Assembly: GCA_964655375.1 (NCBI GenBank)
Contig: CAZZNB010000042.1
Location: forward strand, 8,564 to 72,563
Origin: an uncultured Candidatus Saccharibacteria bacterium
GTDB lineage: Bacteria; Patescibacteriota; Minisyncoccia; UBA6257; HR35
Reading direction: 5' to 3'
Length of the DNA: 64,000 nt
The position numbers and the translations under genes were made by a program. Under the pieces are notes generated by a model. The model saw only the letters and a program-made list of their open reading frames with translations, made no database searches and was not told the origin of the DNA. Positions 2,064 through 47,773 of this stretch are shown piece by piece. The first letter of the stretch is position 1. Every line of letters begins with the position of its first letter.

Positions 2064-2096
2064 TTATTTTGTAATTTTTTTATAATTTTTGTTATA

Positions 2097-3215: not shown

Positions 3216-3226
3216 TCGCAATTTTA

Positions 3227-5054: not shown

Positions 5055-5084
5055 TATAATTTTATAATTATAAAGAAAGGAAAA

Positions 5085-10784: not shown

Positions 10785-12148
10785 TATTTAAAATTTTTAA
10801 TAATATATTTAAATGCGTTTAAGCTCGTTGAAATTATTAAGTTATTATTATAAATTGTCCATATAAATTTATAATCATTATCGTAATAAGCTATTTTATA
10901 TTTAACACCTTCATACTCTTCTGTAATTGTATAAAGCCTAATTAATTTCCCCTTTGGTAATCCTAAATATAATTTTTTAAAATCATCTAACAAGCTTTCT
11001 TTATCCCACAACCTCATAAAAGGAACAACAACATTTTCATCTTTTATTGTAAATATTATAACAGGAAATTTGCGAGTATAAGTATAATACATTAAAATTA
11101 CATAAGAATCCCCTAAGCTATTTTTAAAAGCCTCTTGATATTTTTTTTCTATAAAAGATGGAGTTATGAAATAATCCTTAATAAAATCTGATAGCAAAAC
11201 TTGATTATTATAAAAAAAATTAATTTTATATAAACTACCTGCAGATTTTTGAATTTTTATTAAATCAAGCCATTTTAGTCTAAAATCATTTGTAGTAAGT
11301 TCATCTAAAGAAATATTAATCTCTGGTACTTTTAAATAAGGAAAAACAGTTTTTGTTCCTTGCTTTTCAATATCCTCTATTTTTATTTCTTTAATCTCTT
11401 CTGATTTAGGAGAAGGTGTTTCCAATTTTTCCTCTTCAGCTTTAGGGAGTTCTTTAATTTCAGTTTTGGTTGGAGCAGAAGAAGTTAGGGGTGTTAAAGT
11501 AGATATTGTAGATAAAGTAGGTGTTGTAGTTAATTGAGAAGTAGTTGATATAGTAGATTCAGTAGAAGTAGTAATTGTAGATTCAGTTAATTGCGTTAAT
11601 GAAGCTGTAGCCACTTCTTCAGTTTGAGTAGATATTATATCTGTAGGTGTAGTTTGTTGAAAAATGCTAGTAATTATTTTTTCTTCGGTTCCCCCTCTTT
11701 CTTCTTTTGGTGTCTCTTTTTTAAAAATATTATTAAAAACATCTATTTTATTAAGAGCATAAAATCCGCCATAAATAATAAAAGGAATTAATATCAAAAA
11801 AGCCAATAAAGTTAAAAGTTTTTTATTTATTTTGAAAGAAGGCTTTATTTGAATTTTAGGAATTTCTATATTAGGAATTTTAAGTTTTACACTCGGAGTT
11901 TTTTTTGTCTCTGATTTTATCAATTTTTCTTCAGTAGGTTCAGGAATTTCAATTGGTTCTATTTCTGGTAATTTCTCAGGAATAGGTTCTTTCTTTGTAA
12001 TCTTAAAGGTGGGTATTGTTTTTTCCGGAGGAATACTTTCAGCTTCAATTTTCTCTTTTTTTATAAGAATATCTTTAGATGTTTTTAACTCTTTTTCTTC
12101 TTCCTCTCCTCTCCCTTTTATTATTCTATATTTAATCTCATCTGGCAT
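10784..12148 (-). CDS. Hypothetical membrane protein with a Thr/Ser-rich linker and an unknown C-terminal domain
   Basis: One TM (LLTLLAFLILIPFIIYGGFYAL) and a T/S-rich low-complexity stretch. Starts and stops overlap with pnp and the dksA-like gene. Confidence 0.4.
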   Translation of the reverse strand: MPDEIKYRIIKGRGEEEEKELKTSKDILIKKEKIEAESIPPEKTIPTFKITKKEPIPEKLPEIEPIEIPEPTEEKLIKSETKKTPSVKLKIPNIEIPKIQIKPSFKINKKLLTLLAFLILIPFIIYGGFYALNKIDVFNNIFKKETPKEERGGTEEKIITSIFQQTTPTDIISTQTEEVATASLTQLTESTITTSTESTISTTSQLTTTPTLSTISTLTPLTSSAPTKTEIKELPKAEEEKLETPSPKSEEIKEIKIEDIEKQGTKTVFPYLKVPEINISLDELTTNDFRLKWLDLIKIQKSAGSLYKINFFYNNQVLLSDFIKDYFITPSFIEKKYQEAFKNSLGDSYVILMYYTYTRKFPVIIFTIKDENVVVPFMRLWDKESLLDDFKKLYLGLPKGKLIRLYTITEEYEGVKYKIAYYDNDYKFIWTIYNNNLIISTSLNAFKYIIKNFK

Positions 12149-14713: not shown

Positions 14714-14967
14714 AACTTCAATAATTCTTTAAGTTTTTTATATCTAGTAACAGATTTTCTTTCTAAATACTTCAACAATTTTCTTCTTTGTGCTATTTTT
14801 AATATGAGCCCTCTTTTAGAATTATAATCCTTTGGATGTTTTTGTAAATGCTTAGTCAAATTAATAATTTCTTCAGTCAAAATAGCAATTTGAACCTCGC
14901 AAGATCCTGTGTCTTTTTCATGTTTCCCAAATTTTTTTATTATTTCTTGAACTTTACTATTTGCCAT
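14710..14967 (-). CDS. rpsO: Ribosomal protein S15
   Basis: MANSK...[20 protein letters not shown]; 85 aa. Confidence 0.9.
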
Positions 14968-15893
14968 TAAATAATTTTAAAATATTAAATATGAAAAAGC
15001 AAGAAGGGGAAAATTACCTTAAATCTTTGATTTTTCAATTTGTAAAATATTTAGAAATAGTTAAAGGAAGATCGGAAAGCACAAGAAAGATCTATGTTAA
15101 TAGACTGCTGAAATTTTTTGAATGGTTTGATAAGAATCAATATAAAAAGATTAATAAAGATGTAATTTGGCAATTTAGGATATATTTATCAGAACAAAAA
15201 TTGAGCAAAAGAACTCAAGTACATTATTTAATAGTTCTTAGGAATTTTTTAAAATTTTTAAAAAAAGAATTAAACTTAGATGTGATAGATTTTACTCAAG
15301 TAGAGTTACCTAAATTACCAGAAAGAGAAATTAAGATTTTAAATGAATCAGAATTAGAAAAATTATTAAATGCTCCTAAGGGGAATGACCTTAAATCATT
15401 AAGAGATAAAGCTATATTAGAAGTTTTATTTAGTACAGGATTGAGGGTTTCTGAACTATGTTCTTTAAATAGAGATATAGATATAGAAAAAGGGGAAATT
15501 ATCATAAGGGGTAAAGGAAATAAAATAAGAACTGTCTTTTTATCTGAAAGAGCCAAAAAAGCAATTAAAGACTATCTGGAAAATAGAAATGATAACCATC
15601 CAGCATTATTTATTTCTTTAGCTCGAAATACAGAACCTAGAAGATTGTCTGTAAGAGCTATTCAAAAAATTATCAAATCTTACGCTACCAAAGTAGGAAT
15701 TATTAAAAATGTTCATCCACATGTTTTAAGACATCAATTAGCTACCTTTTTGATTTCAGCAGGAGTTAATCTAAGAGCTGTTCAAGAAATCTTAGGCCAT
15801 AAAAATATCTCTACAACACAACTTTATACTCATATTTCTAAGCCTGAATTGAAAGAAATTTATGAAAAAATTATTAATAAAAAATTAAGATAA
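14961..15893 (+). CDS. Tyrosine site-specific recombinase of the XerC/XerD type
   Basis: C-terminal catalytic motifs HVLRHQLAT and [14 protein letters not shown]. The start is probably the internal ATG near 14991. Confidence 0.8.
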
Positions 15894-15984: not shown

Positions 15985-16494
15985 ATGAAGACAAGGGAAG
16001 AAAAACAAAAAATTATAGAAGAATTAAAACATTTTTTTGAAAGATCGAAGAAGATTTTTTTTATTTGCTTATCTAATATAAATTTTGAAATCCAAAGTTC
16101 TTTAAGAGATCAAATTAAAAAAGCTGGAGGTATTTTTAGAGTGGTCAAAAAAACTTTATTAAAATTAGCTAATAAAAATTTAGATTTAGAAGGAGATGAA
16201 TTTAAAGTACCCCTAGGAATAATTTTTGATTTCAATGATTTAAACAATATTGAAATATTTAAAATTCTTACAGAATTTAATAAAACAAAAAATTTAGTAT
16301 TAGTACAAGCTTTAGTAGGTAATAAAATATTAAGACCAGAAGAAATAATTAAAATAGGCAATTTGCCACCTAAAGAAGTATTAATTCAAAAATATAATAT
16401 AATTTTGAAATCTTTATTAAGAAAATTAGTTCTAACTTTAAAAAATCCTATAATAAAATTAAATCTGGTCGTAAATAATGTTAAAAAGAAATAA
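15985..16494 (+). CDS. rplJ: Ribosomal protein L10
   Basis: N-terminal KTREEKQKII.EL sequence and gene context. Confidence 0.85.
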   Translation: MKTREEKQKIIEELKHFFERSKKIFFICLSNINFEIQSSLRDQIKKAGGIFRVVKKTLLKLANKNLDLEGDEFKVPLGIIFDFNDLNNIEIFKILTEFNKTKNLVLVQALVGNKILRPEEIIKIGNLPPKEVLIQKYNIILKSLLRKLVLTLKNPIIKLNLVVNNVKKK

Positions 16495-16868
16495 TGGATG
16501 AAAAAGTTAGGAAAATAGTTGAAGAAATAGAAAGCTTAACAGTTATTGAGCTAAATGAATTGATAAAGATGTTAGAAGAAAAATTTGGGCCAGCAAACAT
16601 ACCAGTTCAAGCAACAATTCCACAAGCATCTCCTGAAGCTCCTTCAGCTGGTCCATCAAAAGTTAATATTATTTTAGTTGATGCTGGAGCGAATAAGATC
16701 CAAGTAATAAAGGCTTTAAGAGAAATAAATCCAAATCTTGGGCTTAAAGAAGCAAAGGATATTGTTGATAATCCTCCTCAAACGATTAAAGAAAATGTTG
16801 ATGTTGAAGAAGCAAATAAAATAAAAGAAAAAATAGAAAGTGCAGGTGGCAAAGTTGAATTTAAATAA
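16494..16868 (+). CDS. rplL: Ribosomal protein L7/L12
   Basis: Motifs IVEEI..LTV.EL..L...EEKFG and VIKALREI..LGLKEAKD. Confidence 0.95.
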   Translation: MDEKVRKIVEEIESLTVIELNELIKMLEEKFGPANIPVQATIPQASPEAPSAGPSKVNIILVDAGANKIQVIKALREINPNLGLKEAKDIVDNPPQTIKENVDVEEANKIKEKIESAGGKVEFK

Positions 16869-22464: not shown

Positions 22465-23057
22465 TAATAATAAATAGTTAAAATTACTGTATGCCTTAAG
22501 CCAAAATAATTTTCAGCTTCAAGGACAAATTTATTTGCGCCTTTTTTTAAAATTGCCTCTTTCTCAAAATATCCTTTTTCATCGTAAACAACAATTTCTC
22601 TATTTATAAAAAATTTGCTTCTTGGGTCTACATACCCCTTGATTTTAATAATTTTAGAATAGGAAATTGTATTATTTAGAGGAGAAATTATTTTTATTTT
22701 TGGAGGAATTATTAGAGTGAAAATCTGATATAAAACAAGAATAAGAAAACAAAAAAAGATGATTAGAATCATAGGCACTTCAAATTTAAGCTTATCTTTT
22801 ACAAGTGGTTTTTCCTTGTAAAAATTAACAAAGCTAATATTTCTTTCTTTGATAATTAAATCTTCTTTAGGCTTGAAAAAATCTTTATATTTTTTTAAAA
22901 TTTGTTTCAAAATAAAAGGAGGTAATTTATTAAATTCTCCTTTTTCTAATATTTCTACTTGACTAAGAGTTATTTTTAAAATTTTAGCTAATTCCTCTTT
23001 TGATAAATTAGCATTTTCTCTTAATTCTTTTAAATATTCATTCAATTTCACTTCCAT
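22461..23057 (-). CDS. RodZ-like protein: XRE-type HTH, one TM, then an extracytoplasmic domain
   Basis: N-terminal LKELRENANLSKEELAKILKITLSQVEILEKGEFNKLP followed by one TM. Confidence 0.5.
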   Translation of the reverse strand: MEVKLNEYLKELRENANLSKEELAKILKITLSQVEILEKGEFNKLPPFILKQILKKYKDFFKPKEDLIIKERNISFVNFYKEKPLVKDKLKFEVPMILIIFFCFLILVLYQIFTLIIPPKIKIISPLNNTISYSKIIKIKGYVDPRSKFFINREIVVYDEKGYFEKEAILKKGANKFVLEAENYFGLRHTVILTIYYY

Positions 23058-25221
23058 TTATATTTTCTTTAAATTCTTCTATATTTTCAATTAATATTTT
23101 GCGAGGTTTAGTTCCCTCCTGTGGGCCTACTATTCCTTTTTCTTCTAAAATATCCAAAATTCTAGCTGCTCTTGAATATCCTATCTTTAATTTTCTTTGT
23201 AAAAGCGAAGTAGAAGCCTTCCCTGTTTCTAAAATTATTTGAAATGCAGCTTTAACTAATTCCTCCTCTGTCTCTTCAGTTTCTAAAGTATCTTTTGGTT
23301 TTTCATATTCTTCTAAAGAAATTTCTTCTTTTTCAAAATCTTCTTTTTCTAAAGCTTGTTTTGCCCAAAAATCAACAATCCTTTCTATCTCTTTTTCTGT
23401 AACAAGTGGTGCCTGTATTCTTTTCATGCCGCCAAATATATTACTTATAAAAAGCATATCTCCTGCACCTATTAATTTTTCAGCTCCACTATAATCTAAG
23501 ACAGTTCTTGAATCAACTTGAGAAGCAACTTTGAAACATATCCTATTAGGAATATTAGCTTTGATTAAACCCGTAACAACATTTACTGAAGGCCTTTGTG
23601 TAGCTAAAACTAAATGGATCCCTGTTGCTCGTGCCATTTGAGCTAATCTAACTATAGCAGATTCTATAAGGTTTCCTTGTTTTATCATAAGGTCAGCCAT
23701 CTCATCTATAATAAAGATAATTCTCGGCATTATTTTCCTCTTTTTTTGAATTTGTAACTTATTATAAGAATCAATATCGCGCACTCTATAATTTTGAAAT
23801 TCTTTATATCTTTTTTCCATTTCATCTATCAACCAGTTCATCACTGAAACAACTTTTTTGACATCTAAAATAGGATCCATCAGAAGATGGGGCAAATTTT
23901 CATATCTAACAAGCTCTATCCTTTTAGGATCTACTAATACTAAATTTAAAACTTCTGGTGTGTTTTTCATTAAGAGAGATATTAATAAAGAATGAATAAA
24001 AACTGATTTTCCTGCGCCTGTAGTTCCAGCTATCAAAATATGTGGCATAAGCGCAAGATCCGCATAAAATGGCTCTCCTGTTATTAATCTTCCTAAGGGG
24101 AAAAGTAATAAACTTTCACTTTCCAAAAATTCAGGGTTTTCAATTAAAGATCTTAATCTTACAATTGCTGATTTAATATTTGGAACCTCAATCCCTATTA
24201 AGGCCCTTCCAGGAATAGGAGCTTCCATTCTTATATTTTGGACTGCTAAGGCTAAAGCTAAATCATTTTGCAAAGCTAAAATTTTAGAAAGTTTTACTCC
24301 CTCTGGCGGTTTTATTGCATATCTTGTTACAGTTGGCCCAATTGTAACCTCTACTACCTCTACATTAATTCCAAAATTTTCAAATGTAGTTTTAATAATT
24401 TCTATATTTTCTTTAATATCACCGCTATCAGGCCTGCTTTCTGTTTTATCTAATAAAGAAATAGGTGGTAGTTCCCATGATGTTTTTATTGGCAATTTTT
24501 TCAACCTTATTTCTTCTTTAACTTCTTGTTTTATTTTTGTTGGCCTTATGATTTCCGGAGACTTTGTAATTTCCTTCTTTTCTTTAATCTCCTTCTTTAC
24601 TTCTTTTGTATAATCTTCTATTTCAACTCCCTCCTTTTTGAATCTTTGTAAAATTAAACTTAAAATTTCTGAAAAGGGTTTTTGGAAAATAATACTTAAA
24701 GATATAAATGATAAAATAATTAAAACAATAGCCAACCCTAATCTTCCTAAATAATTTTCAAAAGATAATAACCATTTACCAATAACCCCTCCATCTTGAA
24801 AAATAATTTCAGAAAAAACAGAGAACACTAAAAACAAAACTAAAAGAGCTAGCGAACTACTTATCTTCCAATTAATATTAAATCTTAATAACCAGCTTAT
24901 TCCTAAAAATAGAAATAGTAAAATTAGTCCAAAATGTGATATTCCAAAAATTTTAATAATAAAATTTTTATAATAATTTCCTAAAACTCCGCCCTTATTA
25001 AAGTCTGAAATGACTGTAAAGATTGATAAAAATATAAATAGCCATCCTAAAATCTCTGTAAACAAATAGCTGTCTTTTAATTTATTTAAGGCCTCTAAAA
25101 TCTCTTTTATTTTTTGAGGCTTTTCTTTATTGTTTTTTTTCATAAAAATATTATAAAACTTGACAAAAAAATATATAAGCTTTAAAATTTTATTAGAAAT
25201 TTGAAATTTAGTTATCCACAA
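23038..25221 (-). CDS. ftsK: DNA translocase FtsK/SpoIIIE
   Basis: N-terminal TM helices, Walker A AGTTGAGKSVF and a gamma winged-helix domain at the C-terminus. The likely true start is the MKKNNKEK methionine near 25143. Confidence 0.9.
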   Translation of the reverse strand: MWITKFQISNKILKLIYFFVKFYNIFMKKNNKEKPQKIKEILEALNKLKDSYLFTEILGWLFIFLSIFTVISDFNKGGVLGNYYKNFIIKIFGISHFGLILLFLFLGISWLLRFNINWKISSSLALLVLFLVFSVFSEIIFQDGGVIGKWLLSFENYLGRLGLAIVLIILSFISLSIIFQKPFSEILSLILQRFKKEGVEIEDYTKEVKKEIKEKKEITKSPEIIRPTKIKQEVKEEIRLKKLPIKTSWELPPISLLDKTESRPDSGDIKENIEIIKTTFENFGINVEVVEVTIGPTVTRYAIKPPEGVKLSKILALQNDLALALAVQNIRMEAPIPGRALIGIEVPNIKSAIVRLRSLIENPEFLESESLLLFPLGRLITGEPFYADLALMPHILIAGTTGAGKSVFIHSLLISLLMKNTPEVLNLVLVDPKRIELVRYENLPHLLMDPILDVKKVVSVMNWLIDEMEKRYKEFQNYRVRDIDSYNKLQIQKKRKIMPRIIFIIDEMADLMIKQGNLIESAIVRLAQMARATGIHLVLATQRPSVNVVTGLIKANIPNRICFKVASQVDSRTVLDYSGAEKLIGAGDMLFISNIFGGMKRIQAPLVTEKEIERIVDFWAKQALEKEDFEKEEISLEEYEKPKDTLETEETEEELVKAAFQIILETGKASTSLLQRKLKIGYSRAARILDILEEKGIVGPQEGTKPRKILIENIEEFKENINGSEIE

Positions 25222-36100: not shown

Positions 36101-36677
36101 GAAAATTACATTACATATACCAAGATCCTTATCGTTGGTAGTTAAGAAAGGTCAAAAAGTTGAAAAAGGTGATCCATTGAATGAAGGAGCTAAAGATCCT
36201 AAATTAGTATATCTATATCAAGGTAAAATTGCTGCATTTAAATATATTATTAATGAACTAAAGAAAGTATATAATTTCCAAGGAGCCGAGATTCATGATA
36301 AACATATAGAAATAATAATTAGAAAAATGTTCTCAAGAGTTAAAATTAAAGAAGTTGGAGATAGTAATTTTATTTATGATGATATAGTTGAAAAAGATAT
36401 TCTAATATTTACTAATAGAAAATTAAAAGAACAAAATAAAAAACCTGCTAAAGGTATTTTGTTACTTTTAGGAATAACAAAAGTCGCTCTTACTACTCAT
36501 AGCTTTTTATCTGCAGCATCTTTTCAAGAGACTGCAAGAGTTCTTACAAGAAGTTCTTTAGAATGCAAAGAGGATCCACTTAAAGGATTGAAAGAAAATA
36601 TAATTTTGGGTAGAAAACCATATATAGGAAGCAACTTTAAACATCCATTAAAGATTTTAGAAAATATCAATTTATAA
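33111..36677 (+). CDS. rpoC: DNA-directed RNA polymerase beta' subunit
   Basis: 1188 aa with the zinc motif CSCGKY...C..C, the catalytic [11 protein letters not shown] loop and a trigger loop. Confidence 0.97.
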
Positions 36678-36680
36678 ATA

Positions 36681-36709
36681 TTGACTTTTGATTAAATATG
36701 GATTACAAT
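36681..36709 (+). promoter_or_regulatory. Candidate sigma70-type promoter for tuf
   Basis: TTGACT, a 17-nt spacer, then TACAAT. An AAGGTCG element follows 13 nt downstream. Confidence 0.5.
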
Positions 36710-36749
36710 TTTACAATAATTTAAGGTCGCAATAAAAATATATCTAAAA

Positions 36750-37949
36750 ATGGCAGCAGCAAAATTTGAAAGAACAAAACCCCATATAAATGTAGGTACA
36801 ATAGGACACATTGATCATGGGAAAACTACATTGACGGCAGCTATTCAACATGTATTAAAGTTAAAAGGTCTTATAGAAAAAGCAGAAACAGTAGAAGAGA
36901 TAGATAATGCTCCAGAAGAAAAAACAAGAGGTATTACAATAAATATTCATCATTCTGAATACGAAACAGAAAAAAGACACTATGCTCATATTGATTGCCC
37001 TGGACATGCTGATTATGTAAAAAATATGATAATTGGCGCTGCTCAAATGGATGGCGCAATTTTAGTTGTAGCTGCTAATGATGGTGTTATGGCACAGACA
37101 AGAGAACATATTCTTTTAGCAAGACAAGTAAATGTACCTGCAATGATTGTTTTTATCAATAAAATAGATGCAGTCCCTGATAAGGAACTTATAGAATTAG
37201 TAGAAGAAGATGTTAGAAATGAACTAAAAAAATATGGATATCCTGGAGATGAAATTCCAGTTATAAAAGGATCCGCCTTAAAAGCTTTAGAAGCTAAAAG
37301 CTTAGAAGATGAATGGACAAAACCCATTTTAGAATTATTAGATGCTTTAGACAATTATATTCCTGAACCCATAAGAGATGTAGATAAACCATTTTTAATG
37401 CCTATCGAAGATGTATTCTCTATACAAGGTAGAGGTACAGTAGTTACAGGAAGAGTAGAAAGAGGAATATTGAAGTTAAATGAAGAAGTAGAAATTGTGG
37501 GCTTAAGAGAAAAACCAATAAAAACTACAGTAACAGGAATTCAAATGTTTCATAAAGATTTAGATGAAGCTCATCCAGGTGATAATGTTGGTCTTCTTTT
37601 AAGAGGAATAGCGAAAGAAGAAGTAGAAAGAGGTATGGTTGTAGCAAAGCCAGGGACTATTACACCTCATATAGAATTTGAAGCAGAGGTTTATGTGTTA
37701 ACTCCAGAAGAAGGAGGAAGACATACACCATTTCATACAGGATATAAACCTCAATTTTACTTCAGAACAACAGATGTGACAGGCGAAATATTTTTACCAG
37801 AAGGAATCGAAGCAGTTATGCCAGGAGATAATGCTACATTTAAGGTGAAATTGATTTATCCTATTGCTTTAGAAGAAGGATTAAGATTCGCTATTAGAGA
37901 AGGAGGTAAAACAGTAGGAGCAGGTGTAGTAACAAAAGTAATCAAATGA
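36750..37949 (+). CDS. tuf: Elongation factor Tu
   Basis: [32 protein letters not shown]; 399 aa. Confidence 0.97.
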
Positions 37950-37964
37950 CAATAAGTTAATTTT

Positions 37965-38303
37965 TTGCACACAAAAATGTCCACTAAACAAAAAATAGAG
38001 CAGAGATTAAGAATAAGATTGAAATCTTACGATCATAGATTGATAGATAAATATGCAAAACAATTAGTAGATATGCTTTTGAAAGAAGGTATGCAAATAA
38101 AGGGACCTATTCCTTTACCTACAGAAATTAAACGTTTTACTGTTAATAGATCTCCTTTTATTTATAAAGATTCTCGAGAGCAATTTGAGTTAAGGATCCA
38201 TAAAAGATTAATAGATATTTTGAATCCTACTCCTAGAATAATTGAACTTTTTTCTTATTTAGATTTACCAGCAGGTGTTGAAATTGAACTAAAAATGATT
38301 TAA
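37965..38303 (+). CDS. rpsJ: Ribosomal protein S10
   Basis: QKIRIRLKSYDHRLID; the start is probably the MSTKQK methionine. Confidence 0.9.
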   Translation: MHTKMSTKQKIEQRLRIRLKSYDHRLIDKYAKQLVDMLLKEGMQIKGPIPLPTEIKRFTVNRSPFIYKDSREQFELRIHKRLIDILNPTPRIIELFSYLDLPAGVEIELKMI

Positions 38304-38355
38304 AATTTATTTCGATCTATTCCTTAAAATTAATATTTTTTTAATTTTTCCATTT

Positions 38356-38997
38356 ATGTACAAATTTATTTTAGGCAAAAAAATTGGTATGACAACTATT
38401 TTTAAAGATAATAAGGCATATCCTGTAACTTTAATAAGTGTTAACCCTTGTGTAGTAACTAATATTTTGACAAAAGAGAAAAATAAATACTCTGCAGTAC
38501 AATTAGGGTGTGGTGAAAAGAAGAAAATTCCTAAACCTGTTTTAGGCCAAGTACATAACCTTGGTAAATTTGCTGTTATTAAAGAATTTAGAGTTCCTGA
38601 GGATCCTAAAAACTTTAAAATCGGTGATATTATTGATATCAATATTTTTAAAGAAGGCGAAGAAGTAAATGTTACTTCTATAAGCAAAGGTAAGGGTTTT
38701 TTAGGTGTTGTAGCAAGGTGGGGTTTTAGAGATGCTCCAAGAACACATGGTCAAACTACAAAATATAGACACCCAGGATCTATCGGTGCTACTACTCCTC
38801 AAAGAGTAATTAAGGGTTTGAAAATGGCAGGTAAAGAAGGGAACAAAAGAGTAACAGTAAAAAATTTAGAAATAGTTGCTATAGATAAAGAGAATAATTT
38901 AATAGCTTTAAAAGGAAGTGTTCCAGGAAGAAGAGGTACAATTGTAGAGATTAGAAGCGCAAATTTAACAAATAAAGGTAAATTAATTAACAAATAA
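38356..38997 (+). CDS. rplC: Ribosomal protein L3
   Basis: ILGKKIGMTTIF; 213 aa. Confidence 0.9.
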   Translation: MYKFILGKKIGMTTIFKDNKAYPVTLISVNPCVVTNILTKEKNKYSAVQLGCGEKKKIPKPVLGQVHNLGKFAVIKEFRVPEDPKNFKIGDIIDINIFKEGEEVNVTSISKGKGFLGVVARWGFRDAPRTHGQTTKYRHPGSIGATTPQRVIKGLKMAGKEGNKRVTVKNLEIVAIDKENNLIALKGSVPGRRGTIVEIRSANLTNKGKLINK

Positions 38998-39003
38998 ACA
39001 TCC

Positions 39004-39651
39004 ATGAAACTACCTTTGTATAATCAAAAAAACGAGATTATCGGAGAAATTGAAATTCCAGAAATTTTAGAAAAGATAGAAGTAAATATTCCTTTAATCC
39101 ATCAAGTAATGCGATGGCAAATTTTAAATTCTTATTATCCTTATGCTCATACAAAAACCCGTGCAGAAGTAAGAGGAGGAGGTAGAAAGCCTTGGCCGCA
39201 AAAGCATACTGGAAGAGCAAGACATGGCTCTATTAGATCACCTATTTGGAAAGGTGGAGGGGTTACTTTTGGCCCTAGAAAAGAAAAAATAAGAGCTATA
39301 AAAATTAATAAAAAAATGAAAAGAAAAGCTATATTAATGGTATTAGCTGAAAAAATCAGAAAAAACTATGCTAGATTTTTAGAAAGTTTAAAACCTGAAG
39401 AATATAAAACTAAATTTGTTCATAAAATGCTTATAAATTTTTTGTCACCTAGAAAAACAAAAAAGAAATATGAATCAGCACTTTTAATCTTACCCGAAAA
39501 CGATAAAATGCTTATAAAATCAGTTAGGAATTTACCTTATGCTAATGCTATCGAAGCAAGAAATTTAAACATTCTTTCTTTATTAAATCATAAATATATT
39601 TTTTTAGAACCTAAAAGCTTAGAGGTAATTGTTAAAAATTTTGCAAAATAA
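39004..39651 (+). CDS. rplD: Ribosomal protein L4
   Basis: RGGGRKPWPQKHTGRARHGSIRSPIWKGGGV. Confidence 0.9.
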   Translation: MKLPLYNQKNEIIGEIEIPEILEKIEVNIPLIHQVMRWQILNSYYPYAHTKTRAEVRGGGRKPWPQKHTGRARHGSIRSPIWKGGGVTFGPRKEKIRAIKINKKMKRKAILMVLAEKIRKNYARFLESLKPEEYKTKFVHKMLINFLSPRKTKKKYESALLILPENDKMLIKSVRNLPYANAIEARNLNILSLLNHKYIFLEPKSLEVIVKNFAK

Positions 39652-40004
39652 TGGCTATATTTGATAAAAAATCAAAAAGAACAAAAGAAGAGCAAAAAGA
39701 AGTTGAAAAAAAACTACAAATGAACGAAAAAAATGTTGAAATAATACCTATTATTTCTGAAAAAAGCAAAAAATTAATAGAAAAAGACAACATATATGTA
39801 TTTAAAATAAAACCTAAAAATCTAAATAAAACTGAAATTAAGAAGTATATCGAAAAAAAATTTAATGTAAAAGTAGAAAAAGTAAGAACAGTTAATTATC
39901 CGAAAAGAAAAAGAGGTAGAACAAGAATACCTTCTGTAAGACCCGCTTTTAAAAAAGCATATGTTAAACTTAAAAAAGAATATAAAATTCCTATTTTTGA
40001 ATAA
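39651..40004 (+). CDS. rplW: Ribosomal protein L23
   Basis: Size, basic composition and position after rplD. Confidence 0.75.
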   Translation: MAIFDKKSKRTKEEQKEVEKKLQMNEKNVEIIPIISEKSKKLIEKDNIYVFKIKPKNLNKTEIKKYIEKKFNVKVEKVRTVNYPKRKRGRTRIPSVRPAFKKAYVKLKKEYKIPIFE

Positions 40005-40041
40005 TTTTTAATTCTATAAAGTCTTTTATTATAATCTTTAT

Positions 40042-40314
40042 ATGAAAAAAGTTATCAAAAGAAAAGGTTATGAAGAAGAATTTAACCCAGAGAAAATTAA
40101 AATTGCTTTAGAAAAAGCATCTAGAGATGCAGGAGAAACCCAAATTTTTAGGATTGTTGAAGATGTAAGTAGAATAGCTTTAGAATTTTGCGAAGATAAA
40201 GAAATTATAGACTCTCAAGATATTAGAGAAGTAATATTAAGCTATCTTCAGGATAAATATCCAAAAGTATATCAAGCATGGATAGATTACGATAAAAATA
40301 TTAAAAATAAGTAA
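40042..40314 (+). CDS. Stand-alone ATP-cone domain protein
   Basis: VIKRKGYEEEFNPEKIKIALEKA...YPKVYQAWIDY matches the ATP-cone pattern of NrdR and RNR N-terminal domains; 90 aa. Confidence 0.65.
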   Translation: MKKVIKRKGYEEEFNPEKIKIALEKASRDAGETQIFRIVEDVSRIALEFCEDKEIIDSQDIREVILSYLQDKYPKVYQAWIDYDKNIKNK

Positions 40315-40316
40315 AA

Positions 40317-41819
40317 ATGGAAGTTTTACCTTTAGGAAAAGCCTATTTTAGAGATAGAACAATCAATTTTGGCATAAAAAAAGAAGATAGAAGAAGACAT
40401 ATTTATATTTTAGGAAAAACAGGAAGTGGGAAAACTACCCTTATAGAAAATATGATTTTCTATGATGTAAATACTAATCAAGGGATAGGCTATCTTGATC
40501 CTCATGGCGATAGTATTTTAAGAGTTTTGAAATTTATACCAAGACAAAGATTAGAAGATGTAATTTATTTTGATCCATCTGATATTGAATATCCTATAGG
40601 TTTTAATCCTTTAGAAAATGTAGATTTTGAACAGAGACATATAGTAGCTTCTAGTATTTTATCTGTGTTTAAAAAAATATGGGTAGATGCTTGGTCTGCA
40701 AGAATGGAATATATTTTAATGAATACTTTATTAGCTTTGTTAGAATTTCCTGGAACAACATTGCTAGATATTAATCGAATGTTAGGAGATGATCGATTTA
40801 GGAAAACTGTTTTAGATAATTTAAGAGATCCGGTTGTAAAAGCATTTTGGGAAAAAGAATTTGCAAGATACCATACTTCTTTTAGAGTAGAAGCTATAGC
40901 ACCAATTCAAAATAAAGTAGGTCAATTTATTGCTAGTCCCTTAATAAGAAATATAATAGGACAAGAAAAAAGCTCTTTCGATTTGAGAGAAATAATGGAT
41001 CAAGGAAAAATATTTTTAGCTAATCTTTCAAAGGGAAAACTTGGCGAAGAAAATTCAATGCTTTTAGGAGGCCTTTTAATTACAAAATTCCAGCTTGCTG
41101 CAATGAGTAGAGTTGATATCCCCGAAGATGAAAGAAGAGATTTTTATTTATATATAGATGAATTCCAAAATTTTGCTACAGAATCTTTTGTTAATATTTT
41201 ATCTGAAGCTAGAAAATATAGACTAAATTTAATTTTATCTCATCAATATTTAGACCAAGTTCCAGAATCTATTCTAAAAGCAGTTTTTGGTAATGTAGGT
41301 AATTTATTAATTTTTAAATGTGGAAGCTTAGATGCAGAAAGATTCGAAAAAGAGTTTGTAGACATAAAATCTTATGAATTTATAAATTTGCCCAAATTTC
41401 ATATTTATGCAAAAATTATTGTTGATGGAACTCCTACACCTCCATTTTTAGCTACTACTTTTCCTCCTAAAGAAATTCCTGAGATTTCTTATGAAGAAGA
41501 AATTATTAGGCTTTCAAGGATAAAATATGCTAAAAATAGAAGATTAGTAGAAAACAAAATATTTAAAAAATATAAAGAAACAGCTACTTCAGAAGATCAA
41601 GAATTAGCAGAATGTAAATATTGTGGAGAAATGTTTTGGAAAGATAAAAATGCAGATATAGAAATATGTTATGAATGTCAAGAAAAATATAAAAAAGGTG
41701 TAAAACTTTCTGAAATAACTTCTAAAAATTTAGGTGTATCTTTTAAACCAATGAACCCCCGTAAAGAAAAAGAGACAGATATTTTGGAAGATTTATTAAA
41801 AAAATTAAAATCAGAATAA
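40317..41819 (+). CDS. P-loop ATPase of the FtsK/HerA/TraD (VirD4-type coupling protein-like) superfamily, with no TM and a C-terminal CxxC...CxxC zinc ribbon
   Basis: Walker A ILGKTGSGKTTLI at residue 33, then YLDPHGD, Walker B YLYIDEFQNFA and ARKYRLNLILSHQYLDQ. C-terminal CKYCGE...CYEC. Confidence 0.6.
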   Translation: MEVLPLGKAYFRDRTINFGIKKEDRRRHIYILGKTGSGKTTLIENMIFYDVNTNQGIGYLDPHGDSILRVLKFIPRQRLEDVIYFDPSDIEYPIGFNPLENVDFEQRHIVASSILSVFKKIWVDAWSARMEYILMNTLLALLEFPGTTLLDINRMLGDDRFRKTVLDNLRDPVVKAFWEKEFARYHTSFRVEAIAPIQNKVGQFIASPLIRNIIGQEKSSFDLREIMDQGKIFLANLSKGKLGEENSMLLGGLLITKFQLAAMSRVDIPEDERRDFYLYIDEFQNFATESFVNILSEARKYRLNLILSHQYLDQVPESILKAVFGNVGNLLIFKCGSLDAERFEKEFVDIKSYEFINLPKFHIYAKIIVDGTPTPPFLATTFPPKEIPEISYEEEIIRLSRIKYAKNRRLVENKIFKKYKETATSEDQELAECKYCGEMFWKDKNADIEICYECQEKYKKGVKLSEITSKNLGVSFKPMNPRKEKETDILEDLLKKLKSE

Positions 41820-41820
41820 A

Positions 41821-42375
41821 ATGAAAGCTAAATATTTTAAAATAGGAGATGTTATTAAAATAAATGGAGAGATTTGGAAAATTGTTAAAATTATTCACAC
41901 TCATAAAGGAAGAGGAAAGGCTGAGTTGGAATTACATTTAAAAAACTTGAAGAATAATAACTTTATAACAAAAATAATTAATCCTGAAGAAGACTTAGAA
42001 GAGCTAGAGATAGAGAAAAGGCCTATTAAATTTCTATATTCTAAGCAAAATAAATTTTATTTTATAGATGAAAATAATAAAAAATATGAAATAACTGCTG
42101 ATGAATTAGGTGATAAAGCTAAATTTATTAAAAAAGATTTAAATATTACAGGAATTTTTTATGAAAATGATTTAATTAATATAGAATTACCTGTCAAAGC
42201 TGTATATAAAGTAATTTATGCTCCTCCAGGACTTAAGGGTGATTCAGAAAAATCAAATTATAAGACTGTAATTATAGAAACAGGAGCAGAAATAGCAGTT
42301 CCTCTATTTATAAACGAAGGAGATTTAATAATTATAAATACAGAAAAAGAAGAATATGTTGAAAGGGCTAAATAA
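41821..42375 (+). CDS. efp: Elongation factor P
   Basis: MKAKYFKIGDVIKINGEIWKIV..IHTHKGRGKA; 184 aa. Confidence 0.85.
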   Translation: MKAKYFKIGDVIKINGEIWKIVKIIHTHKGRGKAELELHLKNLKNNNFITKIINPEEDLEELEIEKRPIKFLYSKQNKFYFIDENNKKYEITADELGDKAKFIKKDLNITGIFYENDLINIELPVKAVYKVIYAPPGLKGDSEKSNYKTVIIETGAEIAVPLFINEGDLIIINTEKEEYVERAK

Positions 42376-42472
42376 AATATTTATTCTCGCCTGATTATTT
42401 GATCTAACTACAGGGGGTATATCTTTATAGATAATATAGTAGGTTATTTTATTTAATAATCCTTATTGAATC

Positions 42473-43450
42473 TTATAACGTTAAACCAGTTTTTTTGAGT
42501 ACTATTTTTAAAGTCTTGTTTGCTATTGCATTTGCTTTTTTAGCTCCTTGACTTAAAATTTTTTTCACATAACTTTTACTTATTTTCTTTTTAATTTTCC
42601 TGGCTTTATCAAAATACATAAAGAAAGCCTCTATAATTGCTTTTTTGAATTCATAATATCCTTTCCCTTTAAATTCTTCTTCTATCTCTGTATAACTTTT
42701 TTTAGTTAAATATTTATAAATAGTCATCAAATTACTAATAGCTGGTTTATTTATTGGGTCATATTTTACTTCTCTACCAGAATCTGTTACTGCCTTTAAT
42801 ATTTTTTCTTTTATAATTTTTTCATCAGCAAATATTTCCAAACATCCTTCTGGCAAAGATTTCGACATTTTTTTATTTGGGTTATCTAAACTCATTATTT
42901 TTGCTGTTTCTTCTTGAATATACATTTCAGGAATTTTAAATGTTTTACCAAATAGCCTATTAAATTTTCTTGCTAATTCTCTTGTAAGTTCTACATGTTG
43001 TCTTTGGTCTTCTCCTACAGGAACTAAATCTGCATTGTAAATTAAAATGTCTGCTGCCATTAATACTGGATATATCAAGATTCCCCCACCTACTCCTTCT
43101 TTTTTATATCTTTCGCTTTGTTCTTTAAATTCATGCATTCTCATTAAATCACCTACCGAAGCAAGACAAGTTAATATCCATTGCAAATATAAATGAGCAG
43201 GAACATCTGATTGTAGAAATATTGTTGTTTTTTGGGGATCTACACCAAGAGCTATACAAGATGAAACAAGGTCATAAGTTAATCTTCTAATTTCCTTTGG
43301 ATCAAATGGAACTGTCTGAGCGTGTAAATTAGCTATCATTAAGAAAATTTCATATTTATTTTGCATATCTATAATTTCCTTTATCATCCCTAGATAATTC
43401 CCCAATTGTATCTCCCCTGTTGGTTTAATTCCTGTTAAAACTCTTTTCAT
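42473..43450 (-). CDS. trpS: Tryptophanyl-tRNA synthetase, bacterial type
   Basis: VLTGIKPTGEIQLGNYLG and KMSKS. Confidence 0.85.
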   Translation of the reverse strand: MKRVLTGIKPTGEIQLGNYLGMIKEIIDMQNKYEIFLMIANLHAQTVPFDPKEIRRLTYDLVSSCIALGVDPQKTTIFLQSDVPAHLYLQWILTCLASVGDLMRMHEFKEQSERYKKEGVGGGILIYPVLMAADILIYNADLVPVGEDQRQHVELTRELARKFNRLFGKTFKIPEMYIQEETAKIMSLDNPNKKMSKSLPEGCLEIFADEKIIKEKILKAVTDSGREVKYDPINKPAISNLMTIYKYLTKKSYTEIEEEFKGKGYYEFKKAIIEAFFMYFDKARKIKKKISKSYVKKILSQGAKKANAIANKTLKIVLKKTGLTL

Positions 43451-46359: not shown

Positions 46360-47036
46360 TTTAGTGGGAAATTTAATAACGACAAAATTACAAAAATAGC
46401 TGTTTCAGTTTTGAGAGTTATTTTGCCTAAACTTATAATTTTACAATCTTTTTCTTCAAAAATTTTCTTTTCTTTATCAGAGAAACCTCCTTCAGGACCC
46501 ACTACTATATTTATAGGATCTTTAATATTTTTAACATCTAAAACCTCACCATCTTTCTCCAAAATAAAGCAATTTTGTGGAAGATCTTTAACCTTAATAG
46601 GAGTTCCAATCTCAGGTAAATATCCCCACTCTGATACTTCTAAAGAAGAATGTAAAATTTTCTCCCATCTTTTTGAAACTTCAGTTGTTGACCAGGAAGA
46701 TCTTTCTGTAATTAAAGGAATAACCCTTTTCACACCTAATTCACTAGCCTTTTCTAAAATGAGTTCAAAGTTATTCTTTCGAATAAAGCTCAAAAATAAA
46801 TTAACCTCTCTTGGTGGGAGTAATGATCGCTTATAGCATTCTACTCTTTTAAATTTCCATGTAGAAGGATCAATTAAAACATATATTCCTTCGTATAAAT
46901 CATTGCCAACAAAAAATATAGTATCACCTGGTTTTAATTTATAAACTTTTTTAATTCGATGTTGAATTTTTTTATCTTCTATTTCTAAAAATTCTTTGTT
47001 TTGAATTTCTGTTTCTAAAAATATTTTTCTTTTCAT
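46356..47036 (-). CDS. rsmE: 16S rRNA methyltransferase RsmE-like
   Basis: C-terminal IVVGPEGGFS motif. Confidence 0.65.
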   Translation of the reverse strand: MKRKIFLETEIQNKEFLEIEDKKIQHRIKKVYKLKPGDTIFFVGNDLYEGIYVLIDPSTWKFKRVECYKRSLLPPREVNLFLSFIRKNNFELILEKASELGVKRVIPLITERSSWSTTEVSKRWEKILHSSLEVSEWGYLPEIGTPIKVKDLPQNCFILEKDGEVLDVKNIKDPINIVVGPEGGFSDKEKKIFEEKDCKIISLGKITLKTETAIFVILSLLNFPLK

Positions 47037-47773
47037 TTTGCAATAGTAATTAAGATAATATTTTTTGCCCCCTTTTCTTTTAAAATTCTGCTACACTCAA
47101 AAGCAGTAGCTCCTGTAGTTACCACATCATCAATTAAAATTATATTTAAAGGTGGGGTATCTAAGCATTGAAAAGCAGATTTTACATTTTTTATTCTCTC
47201 TTTATATCCTAATTCTGTTTGTAATTTTGTAGGCCTTATTTTAATTAATCCATCCCAAATTCTTAAATTTGTTTTAATTGACAAAATTTGAGCTAATATT
47301 CTAGTTTGGTTAAACCTTCGTTTTCTTTCATCTAAATAATACATAGGTACATAAGTTATATAATAATCTTTAAAGTTTAATTTAGAATTTTCTAATTCTT
47401 TATAGATCAAATTCCCGAAAAATTCAAAAATTTTGTAAAATCTTCCGATTTTTCCTAATTTTATTAAGTTTTTAATTTGTTCTACTTCATAATCACAAAA
47501 TGTCACCAAAGACTTTATAATATTAGAGCAGCATATAGTGCTTATATTTTCTGTAATTGGTTTTCTTCTTTTGCATTTAGGACAAAATATTTTTAAATTA
47601 AAATCAATTTTTTTTAGGCAATCTTTACATAAATATCCATAATTTAAAAATCTTTTACATTCAATGCAAAAGTAGGGGAATAAAAAATCTTCTAAAATGT
47701 TATATAATTTAAAAATGCTTAGCCTAACATTAGGTAAAAGGATTTTAGGAATTGATTTAGGAACAAAAAACAT
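47033..47773 (-). CDS. comFC: ComFC-like competence protein: double zinc ribbon plus phosphoribosyltransferase domain
   Basis: CIECKRF...CKDC...CPKCKRR, then IILIDDVVTTGAT. The annotated start overlaps pilM. Confidence 0.7.
   Translation of the reverse strand: MFFVPKSIPKILLPNVRLSIFKLYNILEDFLFPYFCIECKRFLNYGYLCKDCLKKIDFNLKIFCPKCKRRKPITENISTICCSNIIKSLVTFCDYEVEQIKNLIKLGKIGRFYKIFEFFGNLIYKELENSKLNFKDYYITYVPMYYLDERKRRFNQTRILAQILSIKTNLRIWDGLIKIRPTKLQTELGYKERIKNVKSAFQCLDTPPLNIILIDDVVTTGATAFECSRILKEKGAKNIILITIAK

What the first reader, a model, noticed from the sequence alone, without database searches (positions are those of the whole stretch)
40005..42375. S10 ribosomal-protein operon truncated after rplW by an ATP-cone + TraD/VirD4-like ATPase + efp module
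The usual order after S10-L3-L4-L23 is L2-S19-L22-S3 and so on. Here a separate -10-like box follows L23. It heads three tightly coupled genes.

- A 90-aa stand-alone ATP-cone protein, from the nucleotide-sensing fold of NrdR and RNR.
- A 500-aa soluble P-loop ATPase with TraD/TrwB/VirD4-like motifs (GKTGSGKT, DPHGD, YIDEFQNF, RKYRLNLILSHQ), a C-terminal zinc ribbon and no membrane anchor.
- efp.

No other conjugation or T4SS genes are in the window. A nucleotide-sensor plus coupling-protein-like ATPase pair placed in a translation-gene context is not a described system. Defence, DNA processing linked to the nearby DNA-uptake pilus, and a regulatory ATPase are all conceivable roles.
Basis: partly seen in the sequence, partly recalled or inferred. 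Interest (0 to 1): 0.7.

Follow-up and report, generated by a model that had tools for sequence, protein, structure and literature searches.

The report
Core CPR translocase ATPase beside ATP-cone
In one small clade of ultra-small (Patescibacteria) bacteria, a genome rearrangement placed a phylum-wide, very conserved but uncharacterised secretion-type motor ATPase and the translation factor EF-P behind the first four genes of a ribosomal-protein operon. A small stand-alone nucleotide-sensing (ATP-cone) gene sits between them, and nothing shows yet that this gene and the ATPase work together.

Summary
The window reads rpoB-rpoC-tuf-rpsJ-rplC-rplD-rplW, then a 90-aa ATP-cone protein, a 500-aa soluble VirD4/VirB4-type P-loop ATPase with a C-terminal zinc ribbon, and efp. 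The same order occurs in at least five independent assemblies, so it is not an artefact.

The interpretation needs correcting.
- The ATPase is not an inserted conjugation or defence gene. It is the orthologue of a vertically inherited, Patescibacteria-wide family that evolves more slowly than r-proteins L4 and L23. A 2025 paper already counts such genes as orphan "T4CP homologues".
- In 59 of 78 related loci it follows a sigma70-r4/HARE-HTH protein and a membrane protein (DUF8128). The DUF8128 model resembles the N-terminal half of VirB4, and the ATPase model best matches the VirB4 C-terminal domain. The ancestral unit therefore looks like a split VirB4-like motor.
- The efp adjacency and the S10 break after rplW are both older than the ATP-cone.
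- The ATP-cone belongs to a broad family of stand-alone ~90-aa cones. It sits next to this ATPase only in this narrow clade, which is one evolutionary event: 0 of 66 distant cone loci, 0 of 3 close outgroups and 0 of 79 other ATPase loci show the pair.

Both genes are under purifying selection. Functional coupling is possible but unproven. Interest is moderate.

The parts
37965..40004 (+). rpsJ (37965-38303), rplC (38356-38997), rplD (39004-39651) and rplW (39651-40004). These are the first four genes of the S10 operon, preceded by rpoB-rpoC-tuf. The operon ends here.
   Evidence: ORFs. Ribosomal_L23 Pfam 76.9 bits. Orthologous genes in L081 carry precomputed Pfam S10, L3, L4 and L23. No L2/S19/L14/L16/S3 motifs anywhere in the window.
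40005..40041 (+). The 37-nt rplW-to-cone spacer. It contains TTATAAT (40029-40035) 6 nt before the ATG. This is a candidate internal -10 element that would give a leaderless or very short-leader transcript. No terminator is predicted here.
   Evidence: Sequence. TTATAAT is kept in 4 of 5 orthologous spacers, and reads TTAAAAT in the fifth, while the rest of the spacer varies. No + strand terminator in 36600-42600, and promoter-like sites are not enriched over shuffles.
40042..40314 (+). Stand-alone 90-aa ATP-cone protein with an intact N-terminal V-x-K-R-x-G...E-x-F...K-I nucleotide-binding motif and a C-terminal AW-x-x-YDK helix.
   Evidence: Pfam PF03477, E 6.4e-12. 19 close clusters, 18 of 90 aa and one of 92 aa, at 66-100% identity. 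dN/dS 0.10-0.29. A deep HMM search finds 267 representative clusters; of the 150 listed, nearly all are 88-105-aa stand-alone cones. A profile of distant stand-alone cones from that search (A3) matches the ATP-cones of NrdD, NrdR and NrdB in the PDB.
40317..41819 (+). 500-aa soluble VirB4-CTD/VirD4(TrwB)-like P-loop ATPase. It is the orthologue of the Patescibacteria-wide orphan 'T4CP homologue' family.
40413..40436 (+). Walker A motif GKTGSGKT (residues 33-40).
   Evidence: Invariant columns G33, T35, G36, G38, K39 and T40. Walker A is present in 17 of 17 aligned homologues.
41148..41174 (+). Walker B region LYIDEFQNF (residues 278-286).
   Evidence: Invariant columns L278, Y279, D281, E282, F283, Q284, N285 and F286.
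41613..41678 (+). C-terminal zinc ribbon CKYC-x14-CYEC (residues 433-454), followed by a disordered, charged tail.
   Evidence: Regex and sequence. Two short strand pairs in the AF2 model at 428-443 and low pLDDT at 460-490. A CxxC...CxxC motif is present in 53 of 81 family members. Many relatives carry PF23477.
41821..42375 (+). efp (elongation factor P), the last gene of the co-directional run. Convergent trpS (42473-43450, minus strand) closes the unit.
   Evidence: NCBIfam NF001810 171.9 bits against a cut-off of 161; three EF-P Pfam domains. ORFs.

Best explanation
This is a lineage-specific gene-order rearrangement in a reduced Patescibacteria (Paceibacter-like) genome. It is not an inserted mobile or defence module.

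SHOWN
- The 500-aa protein is the orthologue of a vertically inherited, phylum-wide ATPase under very strong purifying selection.
- Its fold is that of the VirB4 C-terminal domain and of VirD4/TrwB: a RecA-like nucleotide-binding domain with an inserted all-alpha domain. It also has a C-terminal zinc ribbon and no membrane anchor.
- Its ancestral neighbours are a sigma70-r4/HARE-HTH protein and a membrane-anchored DUF8128 protein whose predicted fold resembles the VirB4 N-terminal domain.
- In the branch leading to this genome the ATPase first became paired with efp. It then lost its upstream neighbours and came to lie after S10-L3-L4-L23, where the r-protein operon is broken in the whole clade. 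Last, a stand-alone ATP-cone gene was placed directly in front of it.
- All three genes remain under purifying selection.

INFERRED
- The ATPase works as a ring-shaped NTP-driven motor. It docks at the membrane through a DUF8128-type partner encoded elsewhere in this genome, and it energises an envelope translocation step. That step would be either the phylum's T4SS-like apparatus or nucleic-acid traffic.
- The three genes are co-transcribed with, or from a weak internal promoter just behind, the ribosomal genes, so they are expressed in step with growth.
- The ATP-cone protein binds ATP or dATP like other cones. Most probably it is an independent small sensor that merely shares the transcript. 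Direct regulation of the ATPase is the minority reading.
For: Family breadth and vertical descent:
- More than 8000 homologous clusters, the best 120 of them ~480-580 aa, nearly all from Patescibacteria MAGs.
- 594 of 600 pattern matches in species-representative genomes encode a relative.
- In a neighbour-joining tree, gene contexts track the ATPase phylogeny.

Selection:
- ATPase dN/dS 0.035-0.14, with dN lower than L4, L23 and EF-P.
- ATP-cone dN/dS 0.10-0.29.

Fold:
- AF2 model pLDDT 83.5.
- Foldseek: TrwB E 2.6e-13.

Ancestral cassette:
- DUF8128 lies at -1 or -2 in 59 of 78 loci, and the sigma70_r4+HARE-HTH protein lies upstream in 56.
- PF26449 is assigned to the partner family.

Order of events:
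- P0023: HTH-DUF8128-ATPase-efp.
- P0007: ychF-ATPase-efp, with no cone.
- P0012: S10-L3-L4-L23, then three genes on the minus strand, then ATPase-efp-trpS, with no cone.
- L081, L088, L089 and L001: full synteny with the cone.

The cone is a member of a broad stand-alone family with no fixed neighbour. The window is otherwise entirely housekeeping and holds a separate true FtsK. The literature reports 5,713 VirD4-type homologues in 2,918 of 3,035 Patescibacteria genomes. Only 148 of them lie near virB4, and their function is open (PMC12102498).
Against: - No experiment exists for this family, so substrate, oligomeric state and membrane docking are all inferred from fold and neighbours.
- The DUF8128 partner is absent from the 64-kb window, and I could not check the rest of the genome. 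The ATPase may work without it here.
- The tight 1-6-nt spacing of cone and ATPase is kept over synonymous divergence of about 0.5-1.4. nrdR-nrdD-nrdG sits just upstream of the ATPase in another lineage, and nrdG does so in a third. Both observations hint that the link to adenine-nucleotide or dNTP sensing may not be accidental.
- The S. epibionticum t4cp homologue is reported as non-essential (PMC12102498). That fits poorly with the extreme conservation seen here, although it may concern the other paralogue.
Confidence: 0.55

Rival explanations
1. The pair is a true two-component system. The stand-alone ATP-cone binds ATP or dATP and, through nucleotide-dependent oligomerisation, switches the VirB4/VirD4-like motor on or off in trans. 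In a nucleotide-scavenging epibiont this would couple a translocation step, possibly nucleic-acid import, to the adenylate or dNTP pool.
For: - The nucleotide-binding motif of the cone is intact and invariant, and the gene is under purifying selection.
- The cone stop and ATPase start lie 1-6 nt apart in all five sequenced relatives, despite near-saturated synonymous change.
- ATP-cone-bearing RNR genes (nrdR-nrdD-nrdG) lie directly upstream of the same ATPase family in a separate lineage of 6 loci, and an nrdG lies upstream in a third lineage, L024.
- A precedent exists for a small protein regulating a VirD4-type ATPase: the PDB entry 8dol on CagZ and Cagbeta, by its title.
Against: - The pairing arose once. 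ATPase relatives at 68-74% identity (P0007, P0012, P0014) lack the cone where checked.
- None of the other 79 ATPase loci has a stand-alone cone next to it.
- None of 66 loci of distant stand-alone cones has the ATPase within 4 kb.
- The three closest outgroup cones sit next to transketolase or a tRNA methyltransferase.
- Tight spacing is the norm for unrelated genes in this genome, for example ATPase-efp at 1 nt.
- A prediction of the complex could not be run.
Confidence: 0.25
2. The ATPase has a translation- or ribosome-linked role, for example as an assembly or quality-control NTPase with a zinc ribbon. Its placement with S10-L23, efp, tuf and ychF would then reflect function.
For: - efp lies directly downstream in 7 of 80 loci.
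- tuf lies within about 6 kb downstream in 8 loci, and ychF lies upstream in P0007.
- The conservation level equals or exceeds that of r-proteins.
- Source annotations of the zinc ribbon read 'L37AE/L43A' or 'RpoP'.
Against: - The fold is that of membrane-associated translocation ATPases.
- The ancestral partner is a membrane protein with a VirB4-NTD-like fold.
- The efp adjacency is confined to one clade, so it is one event.
- Other common neighbours are secDF, pgk-recJ and dnaG-rpoD.
Confidence: 0.08
3. A conjugative, ICE or anti-phage defence element inserted into the S10 operon.
For: - Pfam T4SS coupling-protein domains.
- A PADLOC hit to the mad8 ATPase at E 2.5e-16, plus HerA models.
- A tyrosine recombinase elsewhere in the window at 14961-15893.
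Against: - There is no relaxase, VirB4, other T4SS gene or further defence gene next to the locus or among the window ORFs scanned.
- GC content and skew are uniform across the locus.
- The family is phylum-wide, vertically inherited and under strong purifying selection.
- The recombinase is 24 kb away and is of XerC/D type.
- The PADLOC hits cover only the generic ATPase core.
Confidence: 0.03
4. The 90-aa ORF is a decaying remnant of the N-terminus of nrdD (or of nrdR), not a gene.
For: - Its best NCBIfam hits are to the N-terminus of anaerobic RNR.
- nrdD lies upstream of the ATPase in another lineage.
Against: - The length is a constant 90 aa in 18 of 19 clusters, with 41 invariant residues and dN/dS of 0.10-0.29.
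- The nearest relatives in a search of 1.84 billion proteins are almost all 88-105-aa stand-alone cones sharing a specific C-terminal motif, not RNRs.
Confidence: 0.02

Closest known systems
Orphan VirD4-type 'T4CP homologues' of Patescibacteria (Quinonero-Coronel et al. 2025, PMC12102498)
   Same: Same phylum and the same Pfam and HMM signature. They occur in nearly every genome (5,713 in 2,918 of 3,035 genomes), are usually far from virB4, have no relaxase, and their function is unknown. The window protein fits this description.
   Different: That paper does not separate the ~500-aa anchor-less, zinc-ribbon subfamily. As far as I read it, it also does not describe its DUF8128 and sigma70r4-HARE-HTH neighbours or any ATP-cone partner. 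I did not verify that its HMM hits include this exact family.
VirB4 (TrwK; Thermoanaerobacter VirB4 C-terminal domain, PDB 4ag5 and 7o42)
   Different: Only 12% sequence identity. The NCBIfam VirB4 model is not matched (12.2 bits against 643). The N-terminal domain is not part of this protein, and no DUF8128 gene is in the window. There are no VirB3, VirB6 or VirB8 neighbours. It carries an extra C-terminal zinc ribbon.
TrwB/VirD4/TraD type IV coupling proteins (PDB 1e9r; DotL 6sz9; Cagbeta 8dol)
   Different: No N-terminal transmembrane domain. No relaxase or T4SS genes nearby. NCBIfam TraD and VirD4 equivalogs score far below cut-off (36.8 against 366). The gene is chromosomal, vertically inherited and far more conserved than plasmid T4CPs.
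ATP-cone domains of NrdD, NrdA, NrdB and NrdR
   Same: Same domain (Pfam 46.3 bits) with the N-terminal K-R...E...K-I nucleotide-binding motif. A profile of distant stand-alone cones (A3) matches the NrdD, NrdR and NrdB cones in the PDB at E 2.7e-7 to 1.3e-5. In those proteins the cone senses ATP or dATP and changes oligomeric state (PMC9110341 and PMC11226230 abstracts).
   Different: It has no catalytic or DNA-binding domain attached. There is no zinc ribbon, so it is not NrdR (TIGR00244 16.8 bits against 124.65). No RNR gene is in the window. It belongs to a separate family of stand-alone ~90-aa cones with a C-terminal AWRxYDK motif.

Membership tests
Type IV coupling protein (VirD4/TraD/TrwB) | P-loop nucleotide-binding domain with Walker A and B motifs and an inserted all-alpha domain | tested here: met
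   Walker A residues 33-40 and Walker B 278-286 are invariant. The AF2 model has a helical insert at 104-214. Alignment to TrwB covers 344-411 residues. Pfam PF10412 scores 29.1 against 20.5, and PF02534 28.1 against 20.1.
Type IV coupling protein (VirD4/TraD/TrwB) | N-terminal transmembrane anchor | tested here: not met
   The highest 19-residue hydropathy mean is 1.33, and it lies in an internal helix. The N-terminus is modelled as beta-hairpins at pLDDT of about 90.
Type IV coupling protein (VirD4/TraD/TrwB) | Genetic linkage to a relaxase and/or a VirB4-based T4SS | tested here: not met
   No such gene was found among the 64-kb window ORFs scanned, nor among the recurrent neighbour clusters of the 80 related loci. 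The literature reports only 148 of 5,713 near virB4.
Type IV coupling protein (VirD4/TraD/TrwB) | Curated equivalog score (NCBIfam TraD / VirD4-like models) | tested here: not met
   TIGR03743 scores 36.8 bits against 366, and NF045973 33.3 against 250. The matches cover the N-terminal ~100 residues only.
VirB4 | C-terminal ATPase domain of VirB4 type | tested here: met
   [not shown]
VirB4 | N-terminal VirB4 domain in the same polypeptide, and a match to the sequence model | tested here: not met
   [not shown]
FtsK/SpoIIIE | FtsK motor domain plus alpha and gamma domains | tested here: not met
   PF01580 scores 17.0 bits against 24. A complete FtsK with 4TM, alpha, motor and gamma domains is encoded at 23038-25221 on the minus strand.
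HerA | HerA central domain with a HAS-barrel N-terminus and a NurA or defence-effector partner | tested here: inconclusive
   [not shown]
ATP-cone (PF03477) | Domain model match and N-terminal nucleotide-binding residues | tested here: met
   46.3 bits against 25.8, covering profile positions 1-84 of 88. K6, R7, E12, K18 and I19 are invariant in 18 sequences. Nucleotide binding itself cannot be tested here.
NrdR | N-terminal zinc ribbon plus ATP-cone, and adjacent or regulated RNR genes | tested here: not met
   No zinc ribbon is present; the protein is the cone alone. TIGR00244 scores 16.8 against 124.65. No nrdD or nrdG homologue is in the window.
Known anti-phage defence systems (PADLOC) | A full set of system components | tested here: not met
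   Only ATPase-core hits were found (mad8 at 2.5e-16, and HerA models), and the cone has no hit. No other system genes are nearby.
Elongation factor P | Three EF-P domains and the curated model score | tested here: met
   NF001810 scores 171.9 against 161, while TIGR00038 scores 170.2, just under its 185.8 cut-off. PF08207, PF01132 and PF09285 are all above cut-off.

The most novel reading that the evidence does not exclude
The stand-alone ATP-cone protein is a trans-acting allosteric switch for a VirB4/VirD4-like translocation motor. This would be the first ATP-cone shown to control something other than ribonucleotide reduction or its transcription. In a nucleotide-auxotrophic epibiont it would let the ATP/dATP pool gate an envelope translocation step, such as uptake of host nucleic acid. 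The independent nrdR-nrdD-nrdG adjacency to the same ATPase family in another lineage would then reflect the same functional link.
Probability: 0.15. Interest if true: 0.75.

Novelty: new variant of a known kind. Interest (0 to 1): 0.4.

Why it matters
Patescibacteria make up a large share of bacterial diversity, yet most of their conserved genes have no known role. This ATPase is one of them. It is present almost phylum-wide, evolves more slowly than ribosomal proteins, and has so far only been counted as an orphan 'coupling protein' homologue.

Two results here make its function more testable. First, its ancestral partners are a membrane protein with a VirB4-N-terminal-like fold and a sigma70r4/HARE-HTH protein. 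That points to a split VirB4-like membrane motor rather than a classical coupling protein. Second, in one clade it is co-transcribed with a nucleotide-sensing ATP-cone protein, which gives a concrete, cheap biochemical hypothesis: does the cone bind the motor, and does ATP or dATP change its activity?

The locus also documents fragmentation of the otherwise very stable S10/str ribosomal superoperon. This matters for marker-gene binning and for phylogenies that assume these genes are syntenic.

Tried and rejected
No interface test was possible.
- A metagenome scan with the broad 36-sequence cone alignment failed because it had no conserved stretch. A 6-sequence subset was used instead.
- I looked for the DUF8128 partner in the window by HMM and by profile comparison with the unannotated 454-aa ORF at 10784-12148. 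Neither found anything.
- I tried to place DUF8128 on window-clade contigs by matching contig lengths against those. There was no match, which is uninformative because the search is word-limited.
- Pfam scans of DUF8128 members found nothing, although the precomputed tables assign PF26449. Sequence searches of the PDB with DUF8128 profiles were empty. The close-clade cone profile A2 also found nothing in the PDB, whereas the distant-cone profile A3 did.
- Literature searches for stand-alone ATP-cone, ATP-cone + Patescibacteria, and DUF8128 returned no papers.
- Rejected readings: a mobile or defence element, an nrdD remnant, and an assembly artefact (see the rival explanations). An FtsK paralogue was also rejected, because a true FtsK lies elsewhere in the window.
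- The location of rplB-rpsS-rplV-rpsC could not be determined. They are not in the window by motif search, and whole genomes could not be fetched.
Full report
**1. What is in the sequence**

The window is a 27% GC stretch, with a 16S rRNA gene at 471-2005. From 29.9 kb it reads on the + strand: rpoB, rpoC, tuf, rpsJ, rplC, rplD and rplW (39651-40004). After a 37-nt spacer come a 90-aa ORF (40042-40314), a 500-aa ORF (40317-41819) 2 nt later, and a 184-aa ORF (41821-42375) 1 nt after that. Convergent trpS and tyrS follow.

- ATP-cone: 46.3 bits against a cut-off of 25.8.
- ATPase: TrwB_AAD_bind and T4SS-DNA_transf just above their cut-offs, with a partial DUF87 match.
- EF-P: NF001810 at 171.9 bits against 161.
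- L23 is also confirmed.

The quoted motifs are invariant columns in an alignment of 17 homologues. The ATPase has no hydrophobic segment, and it carries a C-x2-C-x14-C-x2-C ribbon at residues 433-454.

No signature motifs of L2, S19, L14, L16, S3, S12, L11 or L1 occur in any frame of the window. Every other window ORF I annotated that matched a Pfam family is a housekeeping or type IV pilus gene.
- A true FtsK lies at 23038-25221.
- A type IV pilus cluster (pilM, pilB, pilT, pilC, pilin, pilD) spans 47.7-55.6 kb.
- A comFC-like gene lies at 47033-47773.
- The ORFs I scanned, which include all those of 387 aa or more, contain no VirB4, relaxase or defence genes. About 20 shorter ORFs were not scanned.

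**2. The arrangement is real and inherited**

The same order, rpoC-tuf-S10-L3-L4-L23-cone-ATPase-efp-trpS-tyrS, occurs in independent assemblies.
- L001: Candidatus Paceibacter sp., ATPase 88% identical.
- L081-L083: 81% identical.
- L088 and L089.

The organism is therefore a Paceibacter-like member of the Patescibacteria/Minisyncoccota.

**3. The ATPase is a core Patescibacteria gene**

A word-indexed search returned the capped maximum of 8000 homologous clusters. The best 120 are about 480-580 aa, apart from one 277-aa fragment, and 52-96% identical. Nearly all the source names that give an organism place them in Patescibacteria. In the species-representative genome set, 594 of the first 600 pattern matches encode a relative, and the best 80 are still 50-61% identical across different candidate phyla.

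A neighbour-joining tree of the 81 proteins groups them by gene context, as vertical descent predicts. Pairwise dN/dS in the window clade is 0.035-0.14. dN is lower than for L4, L23 and EF-P in the same genomes.

The AF2 model (pLDDT 83.5, pTM 0.78) matches known translocation ATPases.
- Foldseek: TrwBΔN70 at E 2.6e-13.

The published census of Patescibacteria T4SS genes reports 5,713 VirD4-type T4CP homologues in 2,918 of 3,035 genomes, and only 148 of them lie near virB4. It also notes that the S. epibionticum copy is not essential and may have been exapted (PMC12102498). The family is therefore recorded but uncharacterised.

**4. Its ancestral neighbourhood is different from the window's**

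In 59 of 78 loci with upstream sequence, the gene directly before the ATPase encodes a ~430-440-aa protein with one N-terminal hydrophobic helix. In 56 loci that gene is itself preceded by a ~340-aa protein with Sigma70_r4 and HARE-HTH domains, often after secD/secF.

Together the two genes look like a split VirB4-like ATPase: a membrane-anchored N-terminal-domain protein plus a soluble motor with a zinc ribbon.

**5. Order of events leading to the window**

- P0023 (61% identity) has HTH-DUF8128-ATPase-efp-dnaG-rpoD.
- P0007 (74%) has ychF-ATPase-efp, with no DUF8128 and no cone.
- P0012 (69%) has tuf-S10-L3-L4-L23, then three unknown genes on the opposite strand, then ATPase-efp-trpS.

Downstream efp on the same strand occurs in 7 of 80 genome loci, and these form a single clade with the window. 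The efp pairing and the break of the S10 operon after L23 therefore both predate the ATP-cone. The cone was the last gene to arrive, and the three genes are not a module that truncated the operon.

**6. The ATP-cone**

Only 19 close clusters exist, at 66-100% identity. Eighteen are 90 aa long and one is 92 aa. An alignment of 18 of these sequences has 41 invariant residues, including the N-terminal K-R-x-G...E-E-x-F...K-I motif. dN/dS is 0.10-0.29, so this is a functional gene and not an nrdD remnant.

An exhaustive profile search of 1.84 billion representative proteins found 267 clusters at E ≤ 1e-3. Of the 150 listed, almost all are 88-105-aa stand-alone cones, and the members I retrieved and aligned share a C-terminal AWRxYDK-like motif. 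A profile built from the more distant of these cones matches the cones of NrdD (8p23), NrdR and NrdB in the PDB.

I tested whether such cones accompany the ATPase elsewhere.
- None of 66 metagenome loci of a distant subgroup has the ATPase within 4 kb, and these loci share no fixed neighbour.
- The three closest outgroup cones follow a transketolase C-subunit gene (two cases) or a tRNA methyltransferase (one case).
- None of the other 79 ATPase loci has a stand-alone cone next to it.

The pairing is one event in one narrow clade.

One observation points the other way. In a separate lineage of six loci, nrdR-nrdD-nrdG and a small membrane protein lie immediately upstream of the ATPase. In L024, from another clade, an nrdG does. 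This is too little for statistics, but it keeps a nucleotide link alive.

**7. Transcription**

No terminator-like site is predicted on the + strand between tuf and efp. Promoter-like matches are no more frequent than in shuffled sequence. Even so, TTATAAT lies 6 nt before the cone ATG and is conserved in 4 of 5 orthologous spacers, while the rest of the spacer varies. That spacing would suit a leaderless transcript. Whether the three genes are read through from rplW, from this box, or from both cannot be decided from sequence.

**8. Verdict**

The best-supported account is a rearranged housekeeping operon. It joins four ribosomal genes, a lineage-specific stand-alone ATP-cone sensor, the phylum's core VirB4/VirD4-like motor ATPase (here separated from its usual membrane partner) and efp.

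I infer that the ATPase is a ring-forming, membrane-docking translocation motor. This rests on its fold and ancestral neighbours, not on experiment. Direct regulation of the motor by the cone is possible (about 0.25 including the strongest form), but no independent co-occurrence supports it. Conjugation, defence, pseudogene and artefact readings are rejected.

The result is a new variant of a known, uncharacterised kind, of moderate interest. The more general lead is the DUF8128 + ATPase 'split VirB4' cassette.

Noticed in passing
[not shown]
   Followed up: partly
L037, L046, L047, L052, L055, L058 (about 2000-5900 in each); L024:1318-2175: In a separate lineage a complete nrdR-nrdD-nrdG operon and a small membrane protein lie directly upstream of the same ATPase family. 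In L024, from another clade, an nrdG-type activase does. This is a possible recurrent link between the ATPase and dNTP metabolism, or it may be coincidence.
   Followed up: partly
window 15985-40004: The ribosomal/RNAP superoperon is fragmented in several places. rplJ-rplL (15985-16868) lie 13 kb from rpoB, separated by tRNAs, infB, ychF, ftsK and envelope genes. rpoC is followed directly by tuf, with no rpsL-rpsG-fusA. S10-L3-L4-L23 is cut off from L2 onwards. No S12, L2, S19, S3, L14 or L16 motifs were found anywhere in the 64 kb. rplL was assigned from size and position only.
   Followed up: partly
window 40029-40044: TTATAAT lies exactly 6 nt before the ATG of the ATP-cone gene and is conserved in 4 of 5 orthologous loci while the rest of the spacer varies. 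This geometry would give a leaderless mRNA.
   Followed up: partly
L090:1559-3000; L172:670-1987: Two of the three closest outgroup stand-alone ATP-cone genes lie immediately downstream of a transketolase C-terminal-subunit gene (pentose-phosphate and ribose supply). This hints that the stand-alone cone family may be tied to nucleotide-precursor metabolism rather than to the ATPase.
   Followed up: no
L095:1508-1684 and three other loci of L091-L170: Small (~58 aa) CxxC-x17-CxxC zinc-ribbon proteins lie next to stand-alone ATP-cone genes in 4 metagenome loci. This looks like the same type of ribbon that is fused to the C-terminus of many ATPase family members (PF23477). The ribbon type was judged by eye from one sequence, not by a domain scan.
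   Followed up: no
window 41821-42375 (EF-P residues 26-34, HTHKGRGKA): The loop that carries the modified Lys34 in E. coli EF-P appears to have Arg at its tip here (KGRGK). This rests on my own alignment from memory and was not checked with tools. It may bear on which EF-P modification system, if any, this lineage uses.
   Followed up: no
window 10784-12148 (-): A 454-aa ORF next to pnp has no Pfam match. It has a Pro/Glu/Lys-rich N-terminus, one hydrophobic helix and a Thr/Ser-rich linker. It is unrelated to DUF8128 (hhalign probability 0.2).
   Followed up: partly
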